The notes beneath the pieces are model-generated. The model made no database searches, was not told where the DNA came from, and was given only the letters and a program-made list of their open reading frames with translations. From the IMG/VR virus record IMGVR_UViG_2651869694_000011: a DNA stretch of 17,082 nt. The stretch is one strand, 5' to 3'. The position numbers and the translations under genes were made by a program. The DNA is from a virus. Its lineage: Duplodnaviria; Heunggongvirae; Uroviricota; Caudoviricetes. Below are positions 5,073-15,748 of this stretch, piece after piece (position 1 is the first letter of the stretch; the number at the start of each line of letters is the position of its first letter).

Positions 5073-5130
5073 AAAAAGGGCGGCAGAGCAGTCACGGAGT
5101 AAAACTGATACCGCCAAACGTCACCAGAAA
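5073..5130 (-). ncRNA. dicF: DicF small regulatory RNA
   Basis: The reverse complement of 5073-5130 reads tttctggtgacgtttggcggtatcagttttactccgtgactgctctgccgccctttttaa, which matches the E. coli DicF sRNA sequence from memory, including the terminal hairpin and U-run. Position directly upstream of dicB is as in the Qin dicB operon. Confidence 0.8.
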
Positions 5131-8319: not shown

Positions 8320-8773
8320 ACAGCAAATCCGGCAGATCTGCCGTCGGTGCATGGACCGCTGCCGGGCGGGTGAAACGTGGCCTCCGGATCTGGCTGAGTT
8401 TGTGGCGTTGATTTCGGAGAGCGGGGCAAATCCATTTGGCCTGACGGTGGATGCCGTGATGGAGGAATACCGTCGCTGGAGGAATGAATCCTGGCGGTAC
8501 GACGGGAGTGATAAATACCCGTGGCCACAGCCGGTGCTGTACCACATTTGCCTCGAGATGCGTTCAAAGGGGATTGAGCGCCAGATGACCGAAGGGGAGT
8601 TAAAACGGCTTGTGGAAAGGCAGCTGACGAAATGGGCAAAGCATGTTGGTAATGGCCTCAGTGTTCCGCCAGTCCGGCGACAACTGGCAGCACCCAAACG
8701 CCCGCCAGGGCCAACGCCAATTGAATTGCTGAAACAGGAATATGAGCGCCGGAAGGCGGCCGGTTTTGTCTGA
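8111..8773 (+). CDS. Lambda P-like replication protein (DnaB helicase loader family)
   Basis: Aligns with lambda P from memory: [18 protein letters not shown] vs PSPGQFVAWCREEASVTAG, and [16 protein letters not shown] vs SYPWKSNAHYWLVTNL. The ATG at 8111 has a good SD (aagggggtaagccATG) but overlaps the O-like gene by ~200 nt; alternative starts at 8231 and 8312. Confidence 0.7.
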
Positions 8774-8807
8774 GTTGAGAAGTAATTTTTACCGGGAGGA
8801 AAATTTA

Positions 8808-8960
8808 ATGGAAACCGTTTTTGACGCACTGAAAGCACTGAAAAAAGCCTCGTCGCACGAGATTGCAGCCCGTCTTGAAATCAGCCGTGACGATGCTGTT
8901 ACCGAACTCTGGAAGCTGAAGCGTCGTGGCGAAGCTGATAATGTGGTGGCTGACGAGTGA
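8808..8960 (+). CDS. Small hypothetical protein (50 aa), possible winged-helix fold; may be the 5' part of a frameshifted longer gene
   Basis: Strong RBS (GGGAGG then 8 nt to ATG at 8808). Protein [50 protein letters not shown]. The fold assignment is an inference. Confidence 0.55.
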
Positions 8961-9495
8961 GGCAACTGAAGCGGCCCCAAAAACCACTGCAGAGATGCTG
9001 ATTAACGCGATTGAACAGCATGGTCCTCAGTCGGCTGACGAACTGGCGTTAATGTTCGGGATTACCTCCCGCCGGGCGAATTCATCACTGGCGATGGCTG
9101 TCAGCAAAGGTCGTCTGATTCGCGTAAATCAGGACGGTAAATATCGTTACTGCATACCGGGCGATAATTTACCGGCAGAGCCGAAAGCTGCATCGGTAAC
9201 GGAAACCGATGGTAAAGCCTTTCCTCAGCCGGCAGGTGTTGCGTTACCAGTCCGGGAAGCGGAAACACAGGAAGAAATTAAAACTGAAAGTGTGGCGGTC
9301 ACAGTGCAGTCACAGTCGTCGTTCATCAGAAAGCATCCGGATGGTCTGATTTTACCATCGCTGCATGTGGCTAACCGCGAGCTGCGCCGGGCAAAAGGTC
9401 AGGTTCAGAAGTGGGAGCGCTTATGCGCCGCGCTGCGGGAAATTAATAAGCATCGTGATGTCATACAGAAAATAACGACAGGAGATAACGGGTAA
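8941..9495 (+). CDS. Hypothetical protein; its N-terminal region repeats the pattern of the preceding small ORF
   Basis: ORF in the +1 frame relative to 8808..8960, overlapping its last 20 nt. Contains [45 protein letters not shown], similar in pattern to the upstream ORF. Start is uncertain (GTG 8926, ATG 8941 or ATG 8995). Confidence 0.5.
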
Positions 9496-9516: not shown

Positions 9517-9741
9517 ATGAAAATCAGATATCATGATTTCGGCCCCGTGTCACATATGCTTATTTCCAGTACGGTGCTGGAAACAAGAAAACATAATCAC
9601 ATACTGGATATGCTGCGTCTTGCTGACCCGTATCTGGTAATAAACACCAGTGGAATTTTCTTTCTGAGAAGCACTGTGTCAGGAAAAACATCGCATGTGC
9701 TTCGGGCATATAAAACAGCAGTGCGGGAGGAAGGAGAATGA
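9517..9741 (+). CDS. Hypothetical small protein (74 aa)
   Basis: First ORF of a run of four co-directional ORFs with 4-nt start/stop overlaps. Modest RBS. Confidence 0.5.
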   Translation: MKIRYHDFGPVSHMLISSTVLETRKHNHILDMLRLADPYLVINTSGIFFLRSTVSGKTSHVLRAYKTAVREEGE

Positions 9742-10094
9742 GCGAGATTAACTATCAGGAGCTGCGTGTTGAGCTGGGAGCAGCAAAAAAACGCATAGAA
9801 GAGCTGGAGGCTAATCGTGTGGTGCTTGAGGTGGAAAATGAGAGGTTGAAACACGCAATGGCCGTAGCCCTTGAGCATATATCCGTCACAGATGCAGGAC
9901 AGGCAGGTGTCGCTGCAATGATTATCTATGATGCCATGTACCACAGTGAAAAAACTGACCCCTACGCTTTTCTGGCAGAATTGCGGGCGCAGGGTGTGGA
10001 GATGGTGCGCGAACATCCAGCAATCAAACTTTGCTCTTTGACGCACATATGTGACGAGTTAGTCGCAGAGCTTCGCAAAGGAGGCAACAAGTGA
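9738..10094 (+). CDS. Hypothetical protein (118 aa) with a probable N-terminal coiled coil
   Basis: Strong RBS (ggaggaaggagaATG). ATGA overlap with the upstream ORF. Heptad-like N-terminus ELRVELGAAKKRIEELEANRVVLEVENERLKHAM. Confidence 0.7.
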   Translation: MSEINYQELRVELGAAKKRIEELEANRVVLEVENERLKHAMAVALEHISVTDAGQAGVAAMIIYDAMYHSEKTDPYAFLAELRAQGVEMVREHPAIKLCSLTHICDELVAELRKGGNK

Positions 10095-10279
10095 GTAAAA
10101 CGAATCCGGGCTGGGCAAGGCCACTTATGGCGAAAAAACATCATTATTTTGCTGAAGGTGAAATAACAAGTATTTGCGGTGGGTGGATCTATTTTGGCAA
10201 TGAGCGTGAGCCGGATACATTCGAAAGTCCAGATGATTGTAAAAAGTGTCGTAGAAAATTAAATAAGGGGGGTAAATGA
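10091..10279 (+). CDS. Hypothetical small Cys/His-containing protein (62 aa)
   Basis: GTG start with SD AAGGAGG 7 nt upstream; GTGA overlap with the upstream ORF. Contains SICGG and DCKKCRRK. Confidence 0.6.
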   Translation: MSKTNPGWARPLMAKKHHYFAEGEITSICGGWIYFGNEREPDTFESPDDCKKCRRKLNKGGK

Positions 10280-10587
10280 GCGCAATTAAAGAAATGCCAG
10301 TGGAACGTAATGAATATGGCTGCTGGACGCATCCTGAATATGAAAAATTCTGTGATGGTCGGGAATATATTTCAACGGAAGAGTTTAACGCCTGGATGGA
10401 GAAAAATAATCTTCAGTGGGCTATCCGTAGTATGGATGAAGATGATTTTAATCTGGACGCAGATGGCCCTGATATTTCAGCATGGGAACCTGAGCGACCA
10501 GAAGGTGAGGGATGGTTTATCGGTTCGATACATGACACCGAAGATGGTCCTGTTTGTGTATGGCTGAGAAATAAGGCCGAAGCATAA
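10276..10587 (+). CDS. Hypothetical strongly acidic protein (103 aa)
   Basis: Strong RBS (aaggggggtaaATG). ATGA overlap with the upstream ORF. About 25 Asp/Glu versus about 9 Lys/Arg, with an acidic patch MDEDDFNLDADGPDISAWEPERPEGEG. Confidence 0.7.
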   Translation: MSAIKEMPVERNEYGCWTHPEYEKFCDGREYISTEEFNAWMEKNNLQWAIRSMDEDDFNLDADGPDISAWEPERPEGEGWFIGSIHDTEDGPVCVWLRNKAEA

Positions 10588-10713
10588 AGGCTATAAACCA
10601 ACAACTAAACACTGAAAATTTAAATCAGAAATGATTTTTATTAAATCCTTAACCGGAGGGATTCCTGCACCCTCAGAACATCAGGAGACCGCCCGAAAGG
10701 GCGGTAGTGAAAA

Positions 10714-11277
10714 ATGACTGAATTAACCAAAGAATGGCTACAGAACACGATTACCGGAATTGAGTCATCACGGGATGAAATACCGTTCGGACTCGATGAA
10801 GATCAAAACAACATGCTTACCGCATTAAAAATTGCACTGGCATCACTGGCATCAGTATCGGATGAACGGGCAGCCTATGAATTATTTATGGAGAAGCGTT
10901 TCGGGGAATCTGTAGATCGCCGCAGAGCAAAAAATGGCGATAGAGAATACATGGCATGGGATATGGCGCTTGGCTGGATTATCTGGTGTCACCGCGCCGC
11001 CATGCTTCAGGCTGGAAACTTTCGGGAAAATAAGGGTTCGTCAACCAATAATTTTCGGATAATCTCGGAAACGTCAACCAACTCTCCGGCAATCCCTGAT
11101 GAGGTGTTGTCCGCAATCCTGAAGGTCGCCAGGCTTCGTGCAGATTTCGATGCTTCTGAAGTGGACAGGCGAGGTATCGGTAGTTGTCTGGATGAGGCCG
11201 AGCAAGAACTTATCGTTACCATTAACGAATACGCCAGTCAGATCGCAGTAGAAGCGACACAGGGGGAGAACCAATGA
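10714..11277 (+). CDS. Hypothetical protein (187 aa)
   Basis: Long ORF with no competing frame. Preceded by a perfect 7-bp hairpin with GAAA loop (10688-10705) between an AGGAG motif and the ATG. Confidence 0.65.
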   Translation: MTELTKEWLQNTITGIESSRDEIPFGLDEDQNNMLTALKIALASLASVSDERAAYELFMEKRFGESVDRRRAKNGDREYMAWDMALGWIIWCHRAAMLQAGNFRENKGSSTNNFRIISETSTNSPAIPDEVLSAILKVARLRADFDASEVDRRGIGSCLDEAEQELIVTINEYASQIAVEATQGENQ

Positions 11278-11559: not shown

Positions 11560-11734
11560 TGCTGCGGGTGCTTGAGGCTGTCTGCCTCGGGCATGCCACC
11601 GTAAGGCAGACAGAGAAAAGCCCCAGTTAACATTACGCGTCCTGCAAGACGCTTAACATTAATCTGAGGCCCAATCTATGCTTCACAAACGTAGGTTAGC
11701 CTCTTACGCGCCGAAAGGCAAGGAGAAGCAGGTT

Positions 11735-11890
11735 ATGAAGCAGCAAAAGGCGATGTTAATCGCCCTGATCGTCATCTGTTTAACCGTCATAGTGACGGCA
11801 CTGGTAACGAGGAAAGACCTCTGCGAGGTACGAATCCGAACCGGCCAGACGGAGGTCGCTGTCTTCACAGCTTACGAACCTGAGGAGTAA
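11735..11890 (+). CDS. hokD: Hok/Gef family type I toxin (HokD/RelF-like, 51 aa)
   Basis: MKQQKAMLIALIVICLTVIVTALVTRKDLCEVRIRTGQTEVAVFTAYEPEE matches the Hok family and E. coli HokD as recalled. SD AAGGAGAAG 9 nt upstream. Track ORF 11678..11890 is an in-frame upstream extension. Confidence 0.9.
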   Translation: MKQQKAMLIALIVICLTVIVTALVTRKDLCEVRIRTGQTEVAVFTAYEPEE

Positions 11891-15111: not shown

Positions 15112-15187
15112 GGCCCTTTAGCTCAGTGGTGAGAGCGAGCGACTCATAATCGCCAGGTCGCTGGTTCAAATCCAGCAAGGGCCACCA
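15112..15187 (+). tRNA. tRNA with CAU anticodon, most similar to E. coli tRNA-Ile2 (ileX/ileZ type); could alternatively be annotated tRNA-Met
   Basis: Manual cloverleaf: acceptor GGCCCTT/AAGGGCC, D-arm GCTC/GAGC, anticodon loop CTCATAA, T-loop GGTTCAAATCC, 3' CCA encoded. One A-C mismatch at the base of the anticodon stem. Confidence 0.9.
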
Positions 15188-15267: not shown

Positions 15268-15344
15268 GCGTTGTTAGCTCAGCCGGACAGAGCAATTGCC
15301 TTCTAAGCAATCGGTCACTGGTTCGAATCCAGTACAACGCACCA
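15268..15344 (+). tRNA. tRNA-Arg (anticodon UCU, reads AGA/AGG)
   Basis: Manual cloverleaf: acceptor GCGTTGT/ACAACGC, D-arm GCTC/GAGC, anticodon stem ATTGC/GCAAT with loop CTTCTAA, T-arm ACTGG-TTCGAAT-CCAGT, discriminator A plus CCA. Confidence 0.9.
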
Positions 15345-15662
15345 CACCACACTTATCTGCCCTGACTCTCTTTTGCGGGCTTTTTATTACAGGAAAGACA
15401 CCGGACAGTGAAATGTTAAATGCCTCACAATTCAGGCAGTTGACTGTTGCCTGACATGCTGAGCGTTTGTTAAAAAAATCCTGCATGATGAATCCCCCTG
15501 AGCGGCGGGGCATAATGACAGATGTTTGGTTGCGTATTGTATAGGCAAGTTGCGGATTCTGTCTGGTCATTGCAGAATTCACCGGGAGGCACCCGGCATC
15601 ATGCTGTATACAGAGATTAGGCATATATCCAGGCTTCTCATCGCAGGAGCCTTTTTACATGC

Positions 15663-15688
15663 AAAAAAAAGCCCGAGTGGGTTCGGGC
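15663..15688 (-). terminator. Rho-independent terminator oriented on the minus strand, with no annotated upstream minus-strand gene
   Basis: Plus strand shows an A8 run (15663-15670) then hairpin gcccga-gtgggt-tcgggc (15671-15688), which reads as hairpin plus U8 on the minus strand. Confidence 0.55.
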
Positions 15689-15748
15689 AACAGCATGAGA
15701 TACTTGCATTGTCATTTTTATCGTGTGGATTTTAACCAGGGTTTATAA

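What the first reader, a model, noticed from the sequence alone, without database searches (positions are those of the whole stretch)
9517..10587. Four translationally coupled small genes of unknown function (74, 118, 62 and 103 aa)
Three consecutive 4-nt start/stop overlaps (ATGA at 9738, GTGA at 10091, ATGA at 10276) with strong RBSs suggest stoichiometric co-expression. The set includes a coiled-coil protein, a small Cys/His protein and a highly acidic protein, and I recognise none of them. Position between the replication module and the hok locus is a typical site for accessory, defence or anti-defence cargo in lambdoid prophages. This is my best candidate for an undescribed module, but it could equally be ordinary nin-region-type early genes.
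Basis: partly seen in the sequence, partly recalled or inferred. Interest (0 to 1): 0.6.

Follow-up and report, generated by a model that had tools for sequence, protein, structure and literature searches.

The report
Four unlinked small prophage early genes
The four tightly packed small genes are real, but they are four separate, independently shuffled accessory genes of a lambda-like E. coli prophage, not a conserved four-part system, so the finding is largely ordinary.

Summary
Four + strand ORFs (g1 9517-9741, g2 9738-10094, g3 10091-10279, g4 10276-10587) are joined by three 4-nt start/stop overlaps, each with its own Shine-Dalgarno. They lie between the replication genes and hok/sok in a lambdoid prophage at tRNA-Ser/mtfA of O157:H7-type E. 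coli.

The four genes occur together only in near-identical (>=99%) copies of this one prophage. Among diverged homologues in viral contigs, partners are almost always absent:
- g1: 0 of 62 loci carry g2, g3 or g4.
- g2: g4 in 2 of 62 loci.
- g3: g4 in 1 of 32 loci.
- g4: g3 in 1 of 64 loci.

g4 is preceded by at least five unrelated genes, usually with the same kind of overlap. Runs of 4-nt overlaps also link unrelated genes in lambda, P22, D6 and Fels-1.

- g2 is a shortened Ead/Ea22-like ("eae-like") coiled-coil protein.
- g1 belongs to a family that normally sits beside xis-int.
- g3 is a small His/Cys protein.
- g4 is an acidic domain found in many phages, with no relative of known fold.

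None matches a defence model. Best reading: independent mosaic early accessory genes. Interest is low.

The parts
9517..9741 (+). g1: 74-aa basic protein (pI 9.6), PHROG 1001, function unknown. Its family normally lies at the distal end of the early-left operon, next to xis-int.
   Evidence: ORF. phrog_1001 E=9e-24. Homologues at 35-49% identity in Fels-1, Stx and Klebsiella phages. In Fels-1 and phi367 the homologue sits just upstream of xis/int. Of 62 diverged IMG/VR loci, 50 have an integrase within 3 kb downstream on the same strand. No Pfam, NCBIfam, PADLOC or PDB match.
9738..10094 (+). g2: 118-aa short Ead/Ea22-like ('eae-like') coiled-coil protein. It lacks the N-terminal globular domain of full-length family members.
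   Evidence: The identical protein is named 'eae-like protein' by NCBI (P0283). Many homologues at 50-60% identity carry PF13935. Residues 1-10 match the N-terminus of the 206-aa Ead/Ea22-like protein P0328, and residues 19-118 match its residues 94-206 (54% identity, E=2e-34). g2 itself scores 18.1 bits on PF13935, below the cut-off of 27; 8 of 27 aligned homologues match at E<=0.01. The mosaic alignment is A3.
10091..10279 (+). g3: 62-aa basic protein (GTG start) with invariant His/Cys residues, probably metal-binding. PHROG 2358, function unknown.
10276..10587 (+). g4: 103-aa acidic protein (pI 4.2) of a large, uncharacterised phage domain family (PHROG 1372), with the motif W-P-x2-P-x-G-x-GWF-x-GSIHDTEDGP-x-C-x-WLR.
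10588..10713 (+). Spacer between g4 and the next gene (g5, 10714-11277), with a stable GC hairpin at 10688-10705. It marks the end of the overlapped run.
   Evidence: Sequence. RNA fold -31.6 kcal/mol, z = -3.28 against shuffles. No T-run follows the hairpin and no terminator was called there.

Best explanation
The four ORFs are four independent, single-gene cassettes in the variable accessory part of the early-right (pR) operon of a lambdoid prophage. This is the stretch between the replication genes (DnaT-domain O-like, P, DUF1627) and hok/sok, DUF968, RusA and Q, the positional equivalent of the lambda nin region.

Shown:
- Each gene is real and conserved on its own.
- Each has been exchanged separately among phages, with homology breakpoints at the gene junctions.
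- The four are found together only in one near-clonal prophage lineage.
- The 4-nt overlaps are the usual packing of such regions, whichever gene happens to lie upstream.

Inferred:
- The genes are transcribed only from pR after induction or infection, because no promoter or terminator signal above background lies in or just before the block.
- Each is translated from its own Shine-Dalgarno, with some re-initiation coupling.
- They act early, singly, as non-essential modulators of the host or of the lysis-lysogeny decision.

Gene by gene:
- g2 most likely works like other Ead/Ea22-like proteins. It would be a coiled-coil oligomer whose C-terminal part contacts a host factor. Lambda and Stx-phage Ea22 favour lysogeny (PMC7093339, PMC10834534).
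- g1 belongs to a family that normally sits in the exo-xis region next to xis-int. That region as a whole alters lysogenisation and induction (PMC3824215).
- g3 is probably a small His/Cys metal-binding adaptor.
- g4 is probably a small acidic binding domain for a host protein or a nucleic-acid-related ligand.
- The targets of g1, g3 and g4 are unknown.
For: Context: the window matches the prophage at tRNA-Ser/mtfA of O157:H7 strain 493/89. The gene order there is cro, YdaT, DnaT-like, P, DUF1627, four hypotheticals, one further hypothetical, hokD, DUF968, RusA, Q. sok RNA and DicF were confirmed.

Co-occurrence in IMG/VR viral contigs:
- All four genes are together in the 16 loci with g4 at >=99% identity, except one that lacks g1. 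Of 64 loci with g4 at 83-91%, g3 is present in 1, a distant g1-like gene in 5, and g2-like pieces at varying distances in 13.
- Of 32 diverged g3 loci, g4 is present in 1.
- Of 62 diverged g1 loci, none has g2, g3 or g4. Of 62 diverged g2 loci, g4 is present in 2 and g1 and g3 in none.

Other distribution evidence:
- tblastn against 50,697 phage records gives almost disjoint host-phage sets for the four proteins.
- E. coli complete genomes: g1 in 349, g2 in 467, g3 in 347, g4 in 793 genomes (1219 places), the whole block in 332, nearly all at >=99% identity.
- g4 is preceded by at least five unrelated ORFs, with -4 or -8 nt overlaps or a 13-nt gap.
- DNA homology to mEp460 and Rac-SA53 starts at the g3/g4 junction (query position 875). 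Homology to ev099 and Ro157c2 ends at the g2/g3 junction.

Overlaps are the norm in such regions.

g2 family. g1 beside integrase.

Promoter-like sites number 8, against 4.4 +/- 2.2 in shuffles, and none lies immediately upstream of g1. No terminator was called in 9517-10713.

No defence model matched.
Against: No experiment or expression data were examined, so transcription only from pR and early timing are inferred from position and from the absence of consensus signals. The simple promoter scan could miss a weak promoter.

The functional statements for g1, g3 and g4 rest on context only. For g2 they rest on family membership, which fails the Pfam cut-off for g2 itself. g2 also lacks the family's N-terminal domain and the lambda-type C-terminal domain.

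Lack of co-occurrence does not exclude that the four proteins interact in this particular phage. g3-g4 adjacency recurs twice in diverged form (L020, L127). One metagenomic protein (P0139) fuses a g2-like part to a g4-like part.
Confidence: 0.8

Rival explanations
1. The four genes form one functional module, a multi-protein complex made in fixed ratios through translational coupling, acting as a defence or anti-defence system.
For: There are three consecutive 4-nt overlaps with good ribosome-binding sites. The block sits in a variable accessory region. None of the proteins has a known function. The block is intact in about 332 E. coli genomes.
Against: Those genomes carry one allele at >=99% identity, so the block has no evolutionary depth. 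Diverged homologues of each gene almost never have the others nearby. g4 overlaps in the same way with at least five unrelated upstream genes. Equal or longer runs of overlaps link unrelated genes in lambda and P22. No PADLOC hit was found. No own promoter was detected.
Confidence: 0.04
2. Only a sub-pair is a functional unit: g3+g4, or g4 with the downstream gene g5 (10714-11277).
For: g3 and g4 are adjacent in L020 (95% and 91% identity, without g1 or g2) and in L127 (71% and 65%). g5-like segments lie within about 0.1-1.6 kb downstream of g4 in roughly 25 of 64 diverged loci. One protein, P0195, carries a g4-like domain and a g5-like segment in one chain.
Against: g3 accompanies diverged g4 in only 1 of 64 loci, and g4 accompanies diverged g3 in only 1 of 32. 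g5 is itself a mosaic whose pieces also accompany g2-like genes without g4, in 13 of 62 loci. Only 1 of 146 g4-family representatives contains a g5-like piece. In mEp213, PY54, PseuP_224 and Burkholderia RY5 the neighbours of g4 all differ.
Confidence: 0.1
3. One or more of the genes, g4 above all, is a single-gene anti-defence factor: an acidic mimic, or a binder of a nucleic acid or nucleotide signal, made early to disarm host immunity.
For: g4 is strongly acidic (pI 4.2) and small. It is very widespread in temperate phages of many Proteobacteria, always in early accessory regions. In two representatives its domain is fused to enzymes that degrade short RNA or nucleotides: an Rv2179c-like 3'-5' exoribonuclease in P0213 and a DHHA1 domain in P0198. 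g3 homologues occur in strictly lytic phages, as expected for a host-takeover function.
Confidence: 0.15
4. The overlapping small genes include a toxin-antitoxin pair.
For: The genes are small and adjacent with overlapping start and stop codons. They pair acidic with basic proteins (g3 pI 9.2, g4 pI 4.2) and lie in a prophage that also carries hok/sok and a YdaT-family gene.
Against: No Pfam, NCBIfam or PADLOC toxin or antitoxin model matches. The pairs are not conserved. No own promoter was found.
Confidence: 0.02

Closest known systems
Lambda nin region and P22 nin region (small early genes between the replication genes and Q)
   Same: The block has the same position in the pR operon, between P and Q. 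It has the same dense packing with 4-nt overlaps between genes of unrelated function, and the same gene-by-gene mosaic exchange.
   Different: None of g1-g4 is homologous to a named lambda or P22 Nin protein; tblastn against both genomes gave nothing below E=0.09.
Ead/Ea22-like family (Pfam PF13935; lambda Ea22, P22 EaD/EaE)
   Same: g2 shares 54% identity over 100 residues with proteins that pass PF13935. It has the coiled-coil segment and the highly conserved core ...LKHAMAVxLEHxSVTDAGQAGVAAMII...RAQGVEM plus the tail ELRKGGNx. NCBI names the identical protein 'eae-like'. Lambda and Stx-phage Ea22 are pro-lysogenic, and lambda Ea22 is a tetramer (PMC7093339, PMC10834534).
   Different: g2 is 118 aa, against about 150-206 aa for the family, and lacks the N-terminal domain. 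It scores below the Pfam cut-off. It does not match the solved lambda Ea22 C-terminal domain, either as a single sequence or as a profile. It lies in the pR operon rather than in the exo-xis region of pL.
exo-xis region genes of lambdoid and Stx phages (orf60a, orf61, orf63, orf73, ea22)
   Same: The g1 family occupies that region: it sits next to xis/int in Fels-1, phi367 and 50 of 62 diverged loci. g2's family is the region's largest gene. Both sets are strings of small, early, non-essential genes that influence lysogenisation and induction (PMC3824215).
   Different: No sequence similarity of g1, g3 or g4 to anything in the lambda early region searched was found. g1 has no cysteine, so from my own knowledge of that family it cannot be a TraR/Orf73-type zinc-finger protein (family described in PMC9239242). 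In this prophage the genes have moved to the pR operon.

Membership tests
Multi-gene defence or anti-defence system (conserved operon) | The component genes co-occur as neighbours across diverged genomes. | tested here: not met
   Diverged g1 loci: 0 of 62 have g2, g3 or g4. Diverged g2 loci: g4 in 2 of 62. Diverged g3 loci: g4 in 1 of 32. Diverged g4 loci: g3 in 1 of 64.
Multi-gene defence or anti-defence system (conserved operon) | Match to a model of a known or candidate defence protein. | tested here: not met
   PADLOC-DB gave no hit at E<=1 for g1-g5.
Multi-gene defence or anti-defence system (conserved operon) | Own promoter, allowing expression in the lysogen. | tested here: inconclusive
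   The consensus scan found no site just upstream of g1, and the number of promoter-like sites is not above shuffles (8 against 4.4 +/- 2.2). No expression data were examined.
Ead/Ea22-like family, PF13935 (for g2) | Scores above the Pfam gathering threshold. | tested here: not met
   g2 scores 18.1 bits against a cut-off of 27, E=0.004, covering only model positions 75-138 of 139.
Ead/Ea22-like family, PF13935 (for g2) | Clear homology to proteins that are members. | tested here: met
   54% identity over residues 19-118 with P0328 (E=2e-34), which carries PF13935. Of 27 aligned homologues, 8 match PF13935, with a best E-value of 8e-26.
Ead/Ea22-like family, PF13935 (for g2) | N-terminal domain of the family (model positions 1-74). 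| tested here: not met
   Only the first 10 residues are retained. Residues about 11-93 of P0328 have no counterpart in g2.
Ead/Ea22-like family, PF13935 (for g2) | Lambda-type C-terminal domain (solved by NMR). | tested here: not met
   No PDB match for g2 or for the profile of A3 at E<=1 other than noise. The paper itself says this domain sets lambda Ea22 apart from Stx-phage homologues (PMC10834534).
Ead/Ea22-like family, PF13935 (for g2) | Oligomeric coiled coil and pro-lysogenic activity. | not testable with these tools
   This needs biochemistry and lysogenisation assays.
nin-region-type early accessory genes of lambdoid phages | Located in the pR operon between the replication genes and Q. 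| tested here: met
   The gene order is confirmed, with ORFs.
nin-region-type early accessory genes of lambdoid phages | Homology to named Nin proteins of lambda or P22. | tested here: not met
   tblastn of g1-g5 against lambda 27-46 kb and the whole of P22 gave no hit in the nin genes.
nin-region-type early accessory genes of lambdoid phages | Single-gene mosaic exchange with breakpoints at gene boundaries. | tested here: met
   Homology blocks start or end at the g2/g3 and g3/g4 junctions. The upstream partners of g4 vary.
Type II toxin-antitoxin pair | Conserved two-gene pair with recognisable toxin or antitoxin domains. | tested here: not met
   No domain hits and no conserved pair.

The most novel reading that the evidence does not exclude
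The g4 family may be a new kind of early phage effector domain, for example a binder that neutralises a host immune protein or a nucleotide or oligonucleotide signal. The family is acidic, about 100 aa, and has invariant H19, H86 and W/G residues and a near-invariant C94. It comprises 957 clusters at 50% identity across Proteobacterial phages and has no relative of known fold. In some phages it is fused to a DEDD-type exoribonuclease or a DHH/DHHA1 phosphoesterase. g3, a His/Cys mini-protein shared with lytic phages, could be a second such effector. The four-gene 'module' itself would still not exist.
Probability: 0.12. Interest if true: 0.6.

Novelty: new member of a known kind. Interest (0 to 1): 0.2.

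Why it matters
The practical lesson is for genome scans. In lambdoid early operons, start/stop overlaps and good ribosome-binding sites do not mark a functional module. They are the default packing, and they persist whichever gene recombination places upstream.

The block adds one more example of gene-by-gene mosaicism. Families typical of the exo-xis region (g1, g2) have been relocated into the pR operon.

The only part with some forward value is g4. It belongs to a large, structurally unassigned phage domain family present in hundreds of E. coli genomes, often in several copies per genome. A function for it would annotate many "hypothetical" prophage genes in EHEC and beyond.

Tried and rejected
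- Pfam, NCBIfam and PADLOC scans of g1-g5 gave only a sub-threshold Ead_Ea22 hit for g2. PHROGs gave families with no known function.
- PDB searches with single sequences (g2, g4) and with profiles of all four proteins gave only noise.
- The afdb50 fold library was not available.
- Fusion partners of the g4 domain: 18 of 20 long representatives had no significant Pfam partner. The two useful ones carried Rv2179c-like and DHHA1 domains. PHROG scans of fused proteins gave only 'unknown function' families.
- A Rosetta-stone link was sought between g4 and g1, g2, g3 or g5 among 146 representatives. Only one g5-like piece turned up, plus one g2-like::g4-like chain at PHROG level. That is too little to claim a link.
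- Literature searches for PHROG numbers, RefSeq protein accessions and Sakai/EDL933 locus tags found nothing relevant.
- tblastn against lambda and P22 gave no homologues except a weak g2-EaE/EaD similarity.
- The window-wide Rfam scan found nothing inside the block.
- The 149-aa antisense ORF at 9597-10046 was considered and set aside as a likely shadow ORF, because all cross-phage protein conservation is in the + strand frames.

Full report
**What is there.** The window is a lambdoid prophage. Its closest annotated relative among the records examined is the prophage at tRNA-Ser/mtfA of E. coli O157:H7 strain 493/89. The gene order there is int, exonuclease, dicB, repressor, cro, YdaT, DnaT-domain protein, P, DUF1627, four 'hypothetical proteins', one further hypothetical, hokD, DUF968, RusA, Q. 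Rfam confirms DicF, sok, two tRNAs, STnc100 and AgvB in the window.

The junctions are ATGA, GTGA and ATGA. Shine-Dalgarno-like sequences precede g2, g3 and g4, with a weaker one before g1.

The protein descriptions are also right:
- g2 has a coiled-coil-like N-terminus.
- g3 has invariant H17 H18 C29 C50 C53.
- g4 has pI 4.2.

PGAP starts g3 at a downstream ATG. The conserved GWARP motif upstream of that ATG in homologues of 62-70 aa supports the longer GTG form, and hence the overlap. All four are real genes, because each has protein-level homologues at low identity in unrelated phages.

**Are the overlaps special?** No. In the same window, cro-like->YdaT and RusA->Q also overlap by 4 nt. 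In lambda, 7 of the 11 junctions from O to Q are 4-nt overlaps. In P22, 8 of the 12 junctions from gene 18 to gene 23 are, including a run of four that links the initiator, the helicase, NinA, NinB and NinD. Phage D6 has a run of three that joins a g4 homologue to a Ser/Thr phosphatase. The Fels-1 early-left operon is a chain of such overlaps. Overlap is therefore the default packing of these operons and says nothing about stoichiometric partnership.

**Is the block a conserved unit?** No.
- At the DNA level, the whole block is present in 332 of 5426 complete E. coli genomes, nearly all at >=99% identity, so it is one prophage allele.
- Taken singly, g1 is in 349 genomes, g2 in 467 and g3 in 347. 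g4 is in 793 genomes at 1219 places, so most copies of g4 lack the other three.
- In IMG/VR viral contigs, the four genes are together in the loci with g4 at >=99% identity, except one that lacks g1. Among 64 loci with g4 at 83-91%, g3 is present once, a distant g1-like gene five times, and g2-like pieces 13 times at varying distances.
- Among 32 diverged g3 loci, g4 is adjacent once.
- Among 62 diverged g1 loci, none has g2, g3 or g4. Among 62 diverged g2 loci, g4 appears twice and g1 and g3 never.
- tblastn against 50,697 phage genomes gives almost disjoint sets:
  - g1: Stx phages, Fels-1 and Klebsiella phages.
  - g2: D6, ev099, HK629 and Ro157c2.
  - g3: lytic Wifcevirus-type myoviruses, Sf11 and a Mu-like element.
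  - g4: mEp460, Rac-SA53, D6, mEp213, PY54 and phages of Erwinia, Pseudomonas, Burkholderia, Vibrio and Acinetobacter.
- The gene immediately upstream of g4 is one of at least five unrelated ORFs, mostly with a -4 or -8 nt overlap.
- DNA homology to other phages starts or stops at the g2/g3 and g3/g4 junctions.

This is the classical gene-by-gene mosaicism of lambdoid phages (background: PMC2327257, PMC3945230).

**g1.** PHROG 1001, no other match. In Fels-1 and the Stx phage phi367 the homologue lies in the early-left operon, two or three genes upstream of xis/int. Of 62 diverged loci, 50 have an integrase within 3 kb downstream on the same strand. So g1 belongs to a family typical of the exo-xis region that here sits in the pR operon.

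**g2.** The identical protein is called 'eae-like protein' by NCBI, and many homologues at 50-60% identity carry PF13935, Ead/Ea22-like. Residues 1-10 match the N-terminus of a 206-aa member, and residues 19-118 match its residues 94-206 at 54% identity. g2 therefore looks like a family member that has lost the N-terminal domain. That explains why g2 itself scores below the Pfam cut-off, while 8 of 27 aligned homologues match the family.

The alignment is strikingly mosaic. A nearly invariant core and a conserved tail, ELRKGGNx, are joined to several alternative N-termini and inserts. In the window, the codons of that tail contain the AGGAGG that serves g3. g2 does not match the solved lambda Ea22 C-terminal domain. 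This is consistent with the statement in PMC10834534 that this domain sets lambda Ea22 apart from Stx-phage homologues. Ea22 proteins favour lysogeny (PMC7093339).

About 40% of the top representatives are standalone proteins, and the rest carry extensions. Of 20 long ones scanned, one has an Rv2179c-like 3'-5' exoribonuclease domain and one a DHHA1 domain. This is a hint, no more, of a link to RNA or nucleotide metabolism. Its neighbours differ in mEp213 (early-left operon, after N), PY54, a Pseudomonas phage and a Burkholderia phage.

**How it most likely works.** I found no promoter signal above background and no terminator in or just before the block. The four genes are therefore most simply part of the long pR transcript: silent in the repressed lysogen and made early after induction or infection. 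This is inferred. Each has its own ribosome-binding site, and the overlaps may add some re-initiation coupling (also inferred).

Functionally, I take them to be independent, non-essential early modulators of the kind known from the exo-xis and nin regions. g2 is probably an oligomeric coiled-coil protein acting like Ea22. g1, g3 and g4 have unknown targets. The exo-xis region as a whole is known to change lysogenisation and induction (PMC3824215). Silence in the lysogen argues against a defence role, which would need expression in the lysogen. An anti-defence or host-takeover role for single genes, g4 above all, remains possible but is unsupported by any match.

**Comparison with what is known, and novelty.** In position, packing and mosaic behaviour, the block is the equivalent of the lambda and P22 nin region. 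It has no homology to the named Nin proteins. g2 is a truncated relative of the Ead/Ea22-like family, and g1's family is an exo-xis-region family. All four families are already catalogued as PHROGs and annotated as hypothetical proteins in hundreds of genomes. The finding is thus a new, uncharacterised set of members of a known kind of region, not a new system.

**Verdict.**
- Observation: confirmed.
- 'Module' interpretation: not supported.
- Interest: 0.2. The residual value lies in the g4 domain family, which is large, structurally unassigned and untested.

Noticed in passing
window 8742-9495: The DUF1627 gene upstream of the block is split into two overlapping ORFs (8742-8960 and 8926-9495). 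In O157:H7 strain 493/89 it is one intact 232-aa ORF. The reading frames part around ...RRGEADN, so the window copy carries a frameshift and is probably a pseudogene.
   Followed up: partly
window 10688-10705 (spacer 10588-10713): A stable GC hairpin, ACCGCCC-GAAA-GGGCGGT, lies 8 nt before the start of g5. The spacer folds well below shuffles (-31.6 kcal/mol, z -3.28). No T-run follows, so it does not look like an intrinsic terminator. It could be a processing or stability element, or could modulate g5 translation. The spacer travels with g4 in mEp460 and Rac-SA53.
   Followed up: partly
window 10714-11277 (g5): The next gene (187 aa, acidic) is itself a mosaic of PHROG pieces (phrog_3323/5117, 660, 14306, 60). 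Its pieces turn up downstream of diverged g4 genes (about 25 of 64 loci) and of diverged g2 genes (13 of 62 loci). One metagenomic protein (P0195) joins a g4-like domain, a g5-like segment and a further C-terminal domain in one chain.
   Followed up: partly
window 10070-10094 and alignment A3: The C-terminal tail ELRKGGNx is conserved across otherwise mosaic Ead/Ea22-like proteins. In the window its codons (aaa gga ggc aac aag tga) contain the Shine-Dalgarno for the downstream gene. It may serve as a conserved boundary sequence at which cassettes are exchanged.
   Followed up: no
window 10091-10279 vs L001 10728-10880: RefSeq/PGAP annotates g3 as 50 aa from an internal ATG (window 10127). Conservation of the upstream GWARP motif in homologues suggests the true start is the GTG at 10091, so the public annotation is probably too short.
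   Followed up: yes
proteins P0213 and P0198 (g4-family representatives): The g4-type domain occurs at the C-terminus of a protein with an Rv2179c-like 3'-5' exoribonuclease domain, and of a protein with a DHHA1 domain. The two g4-type domains are close to each other in sequence. This is a possible functional hint for the family.
   Followed up: partly
protein P0139 (g4-family representative): This 277-aa protein joins an Ead/Ea22-like (phrog_492) part to a g4-like part in one reading frame. It may be a true fusion, or a frameshift or gene-calling artefact of two adjacent genes.
   Followed up: no
window 9597-10046, minus strand: A 149-aa antisense ORF overlaps g1 and g2. All cross-phage protein conservation is in the + strand frames, so it is most likely a shadow ORF.
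   Followed up: no
window 15454-15723: Rfam finds STnc100 (15454-15662, +) and the anti-GcvB sRNA AgvB (15664-15723, -), next to two tRNA genes (15112-15184, 15268-15341) downstream of Q. DicF lies at 5078-5129 (-) and the sok/hok region at 11566-11740.
   Followed up: no
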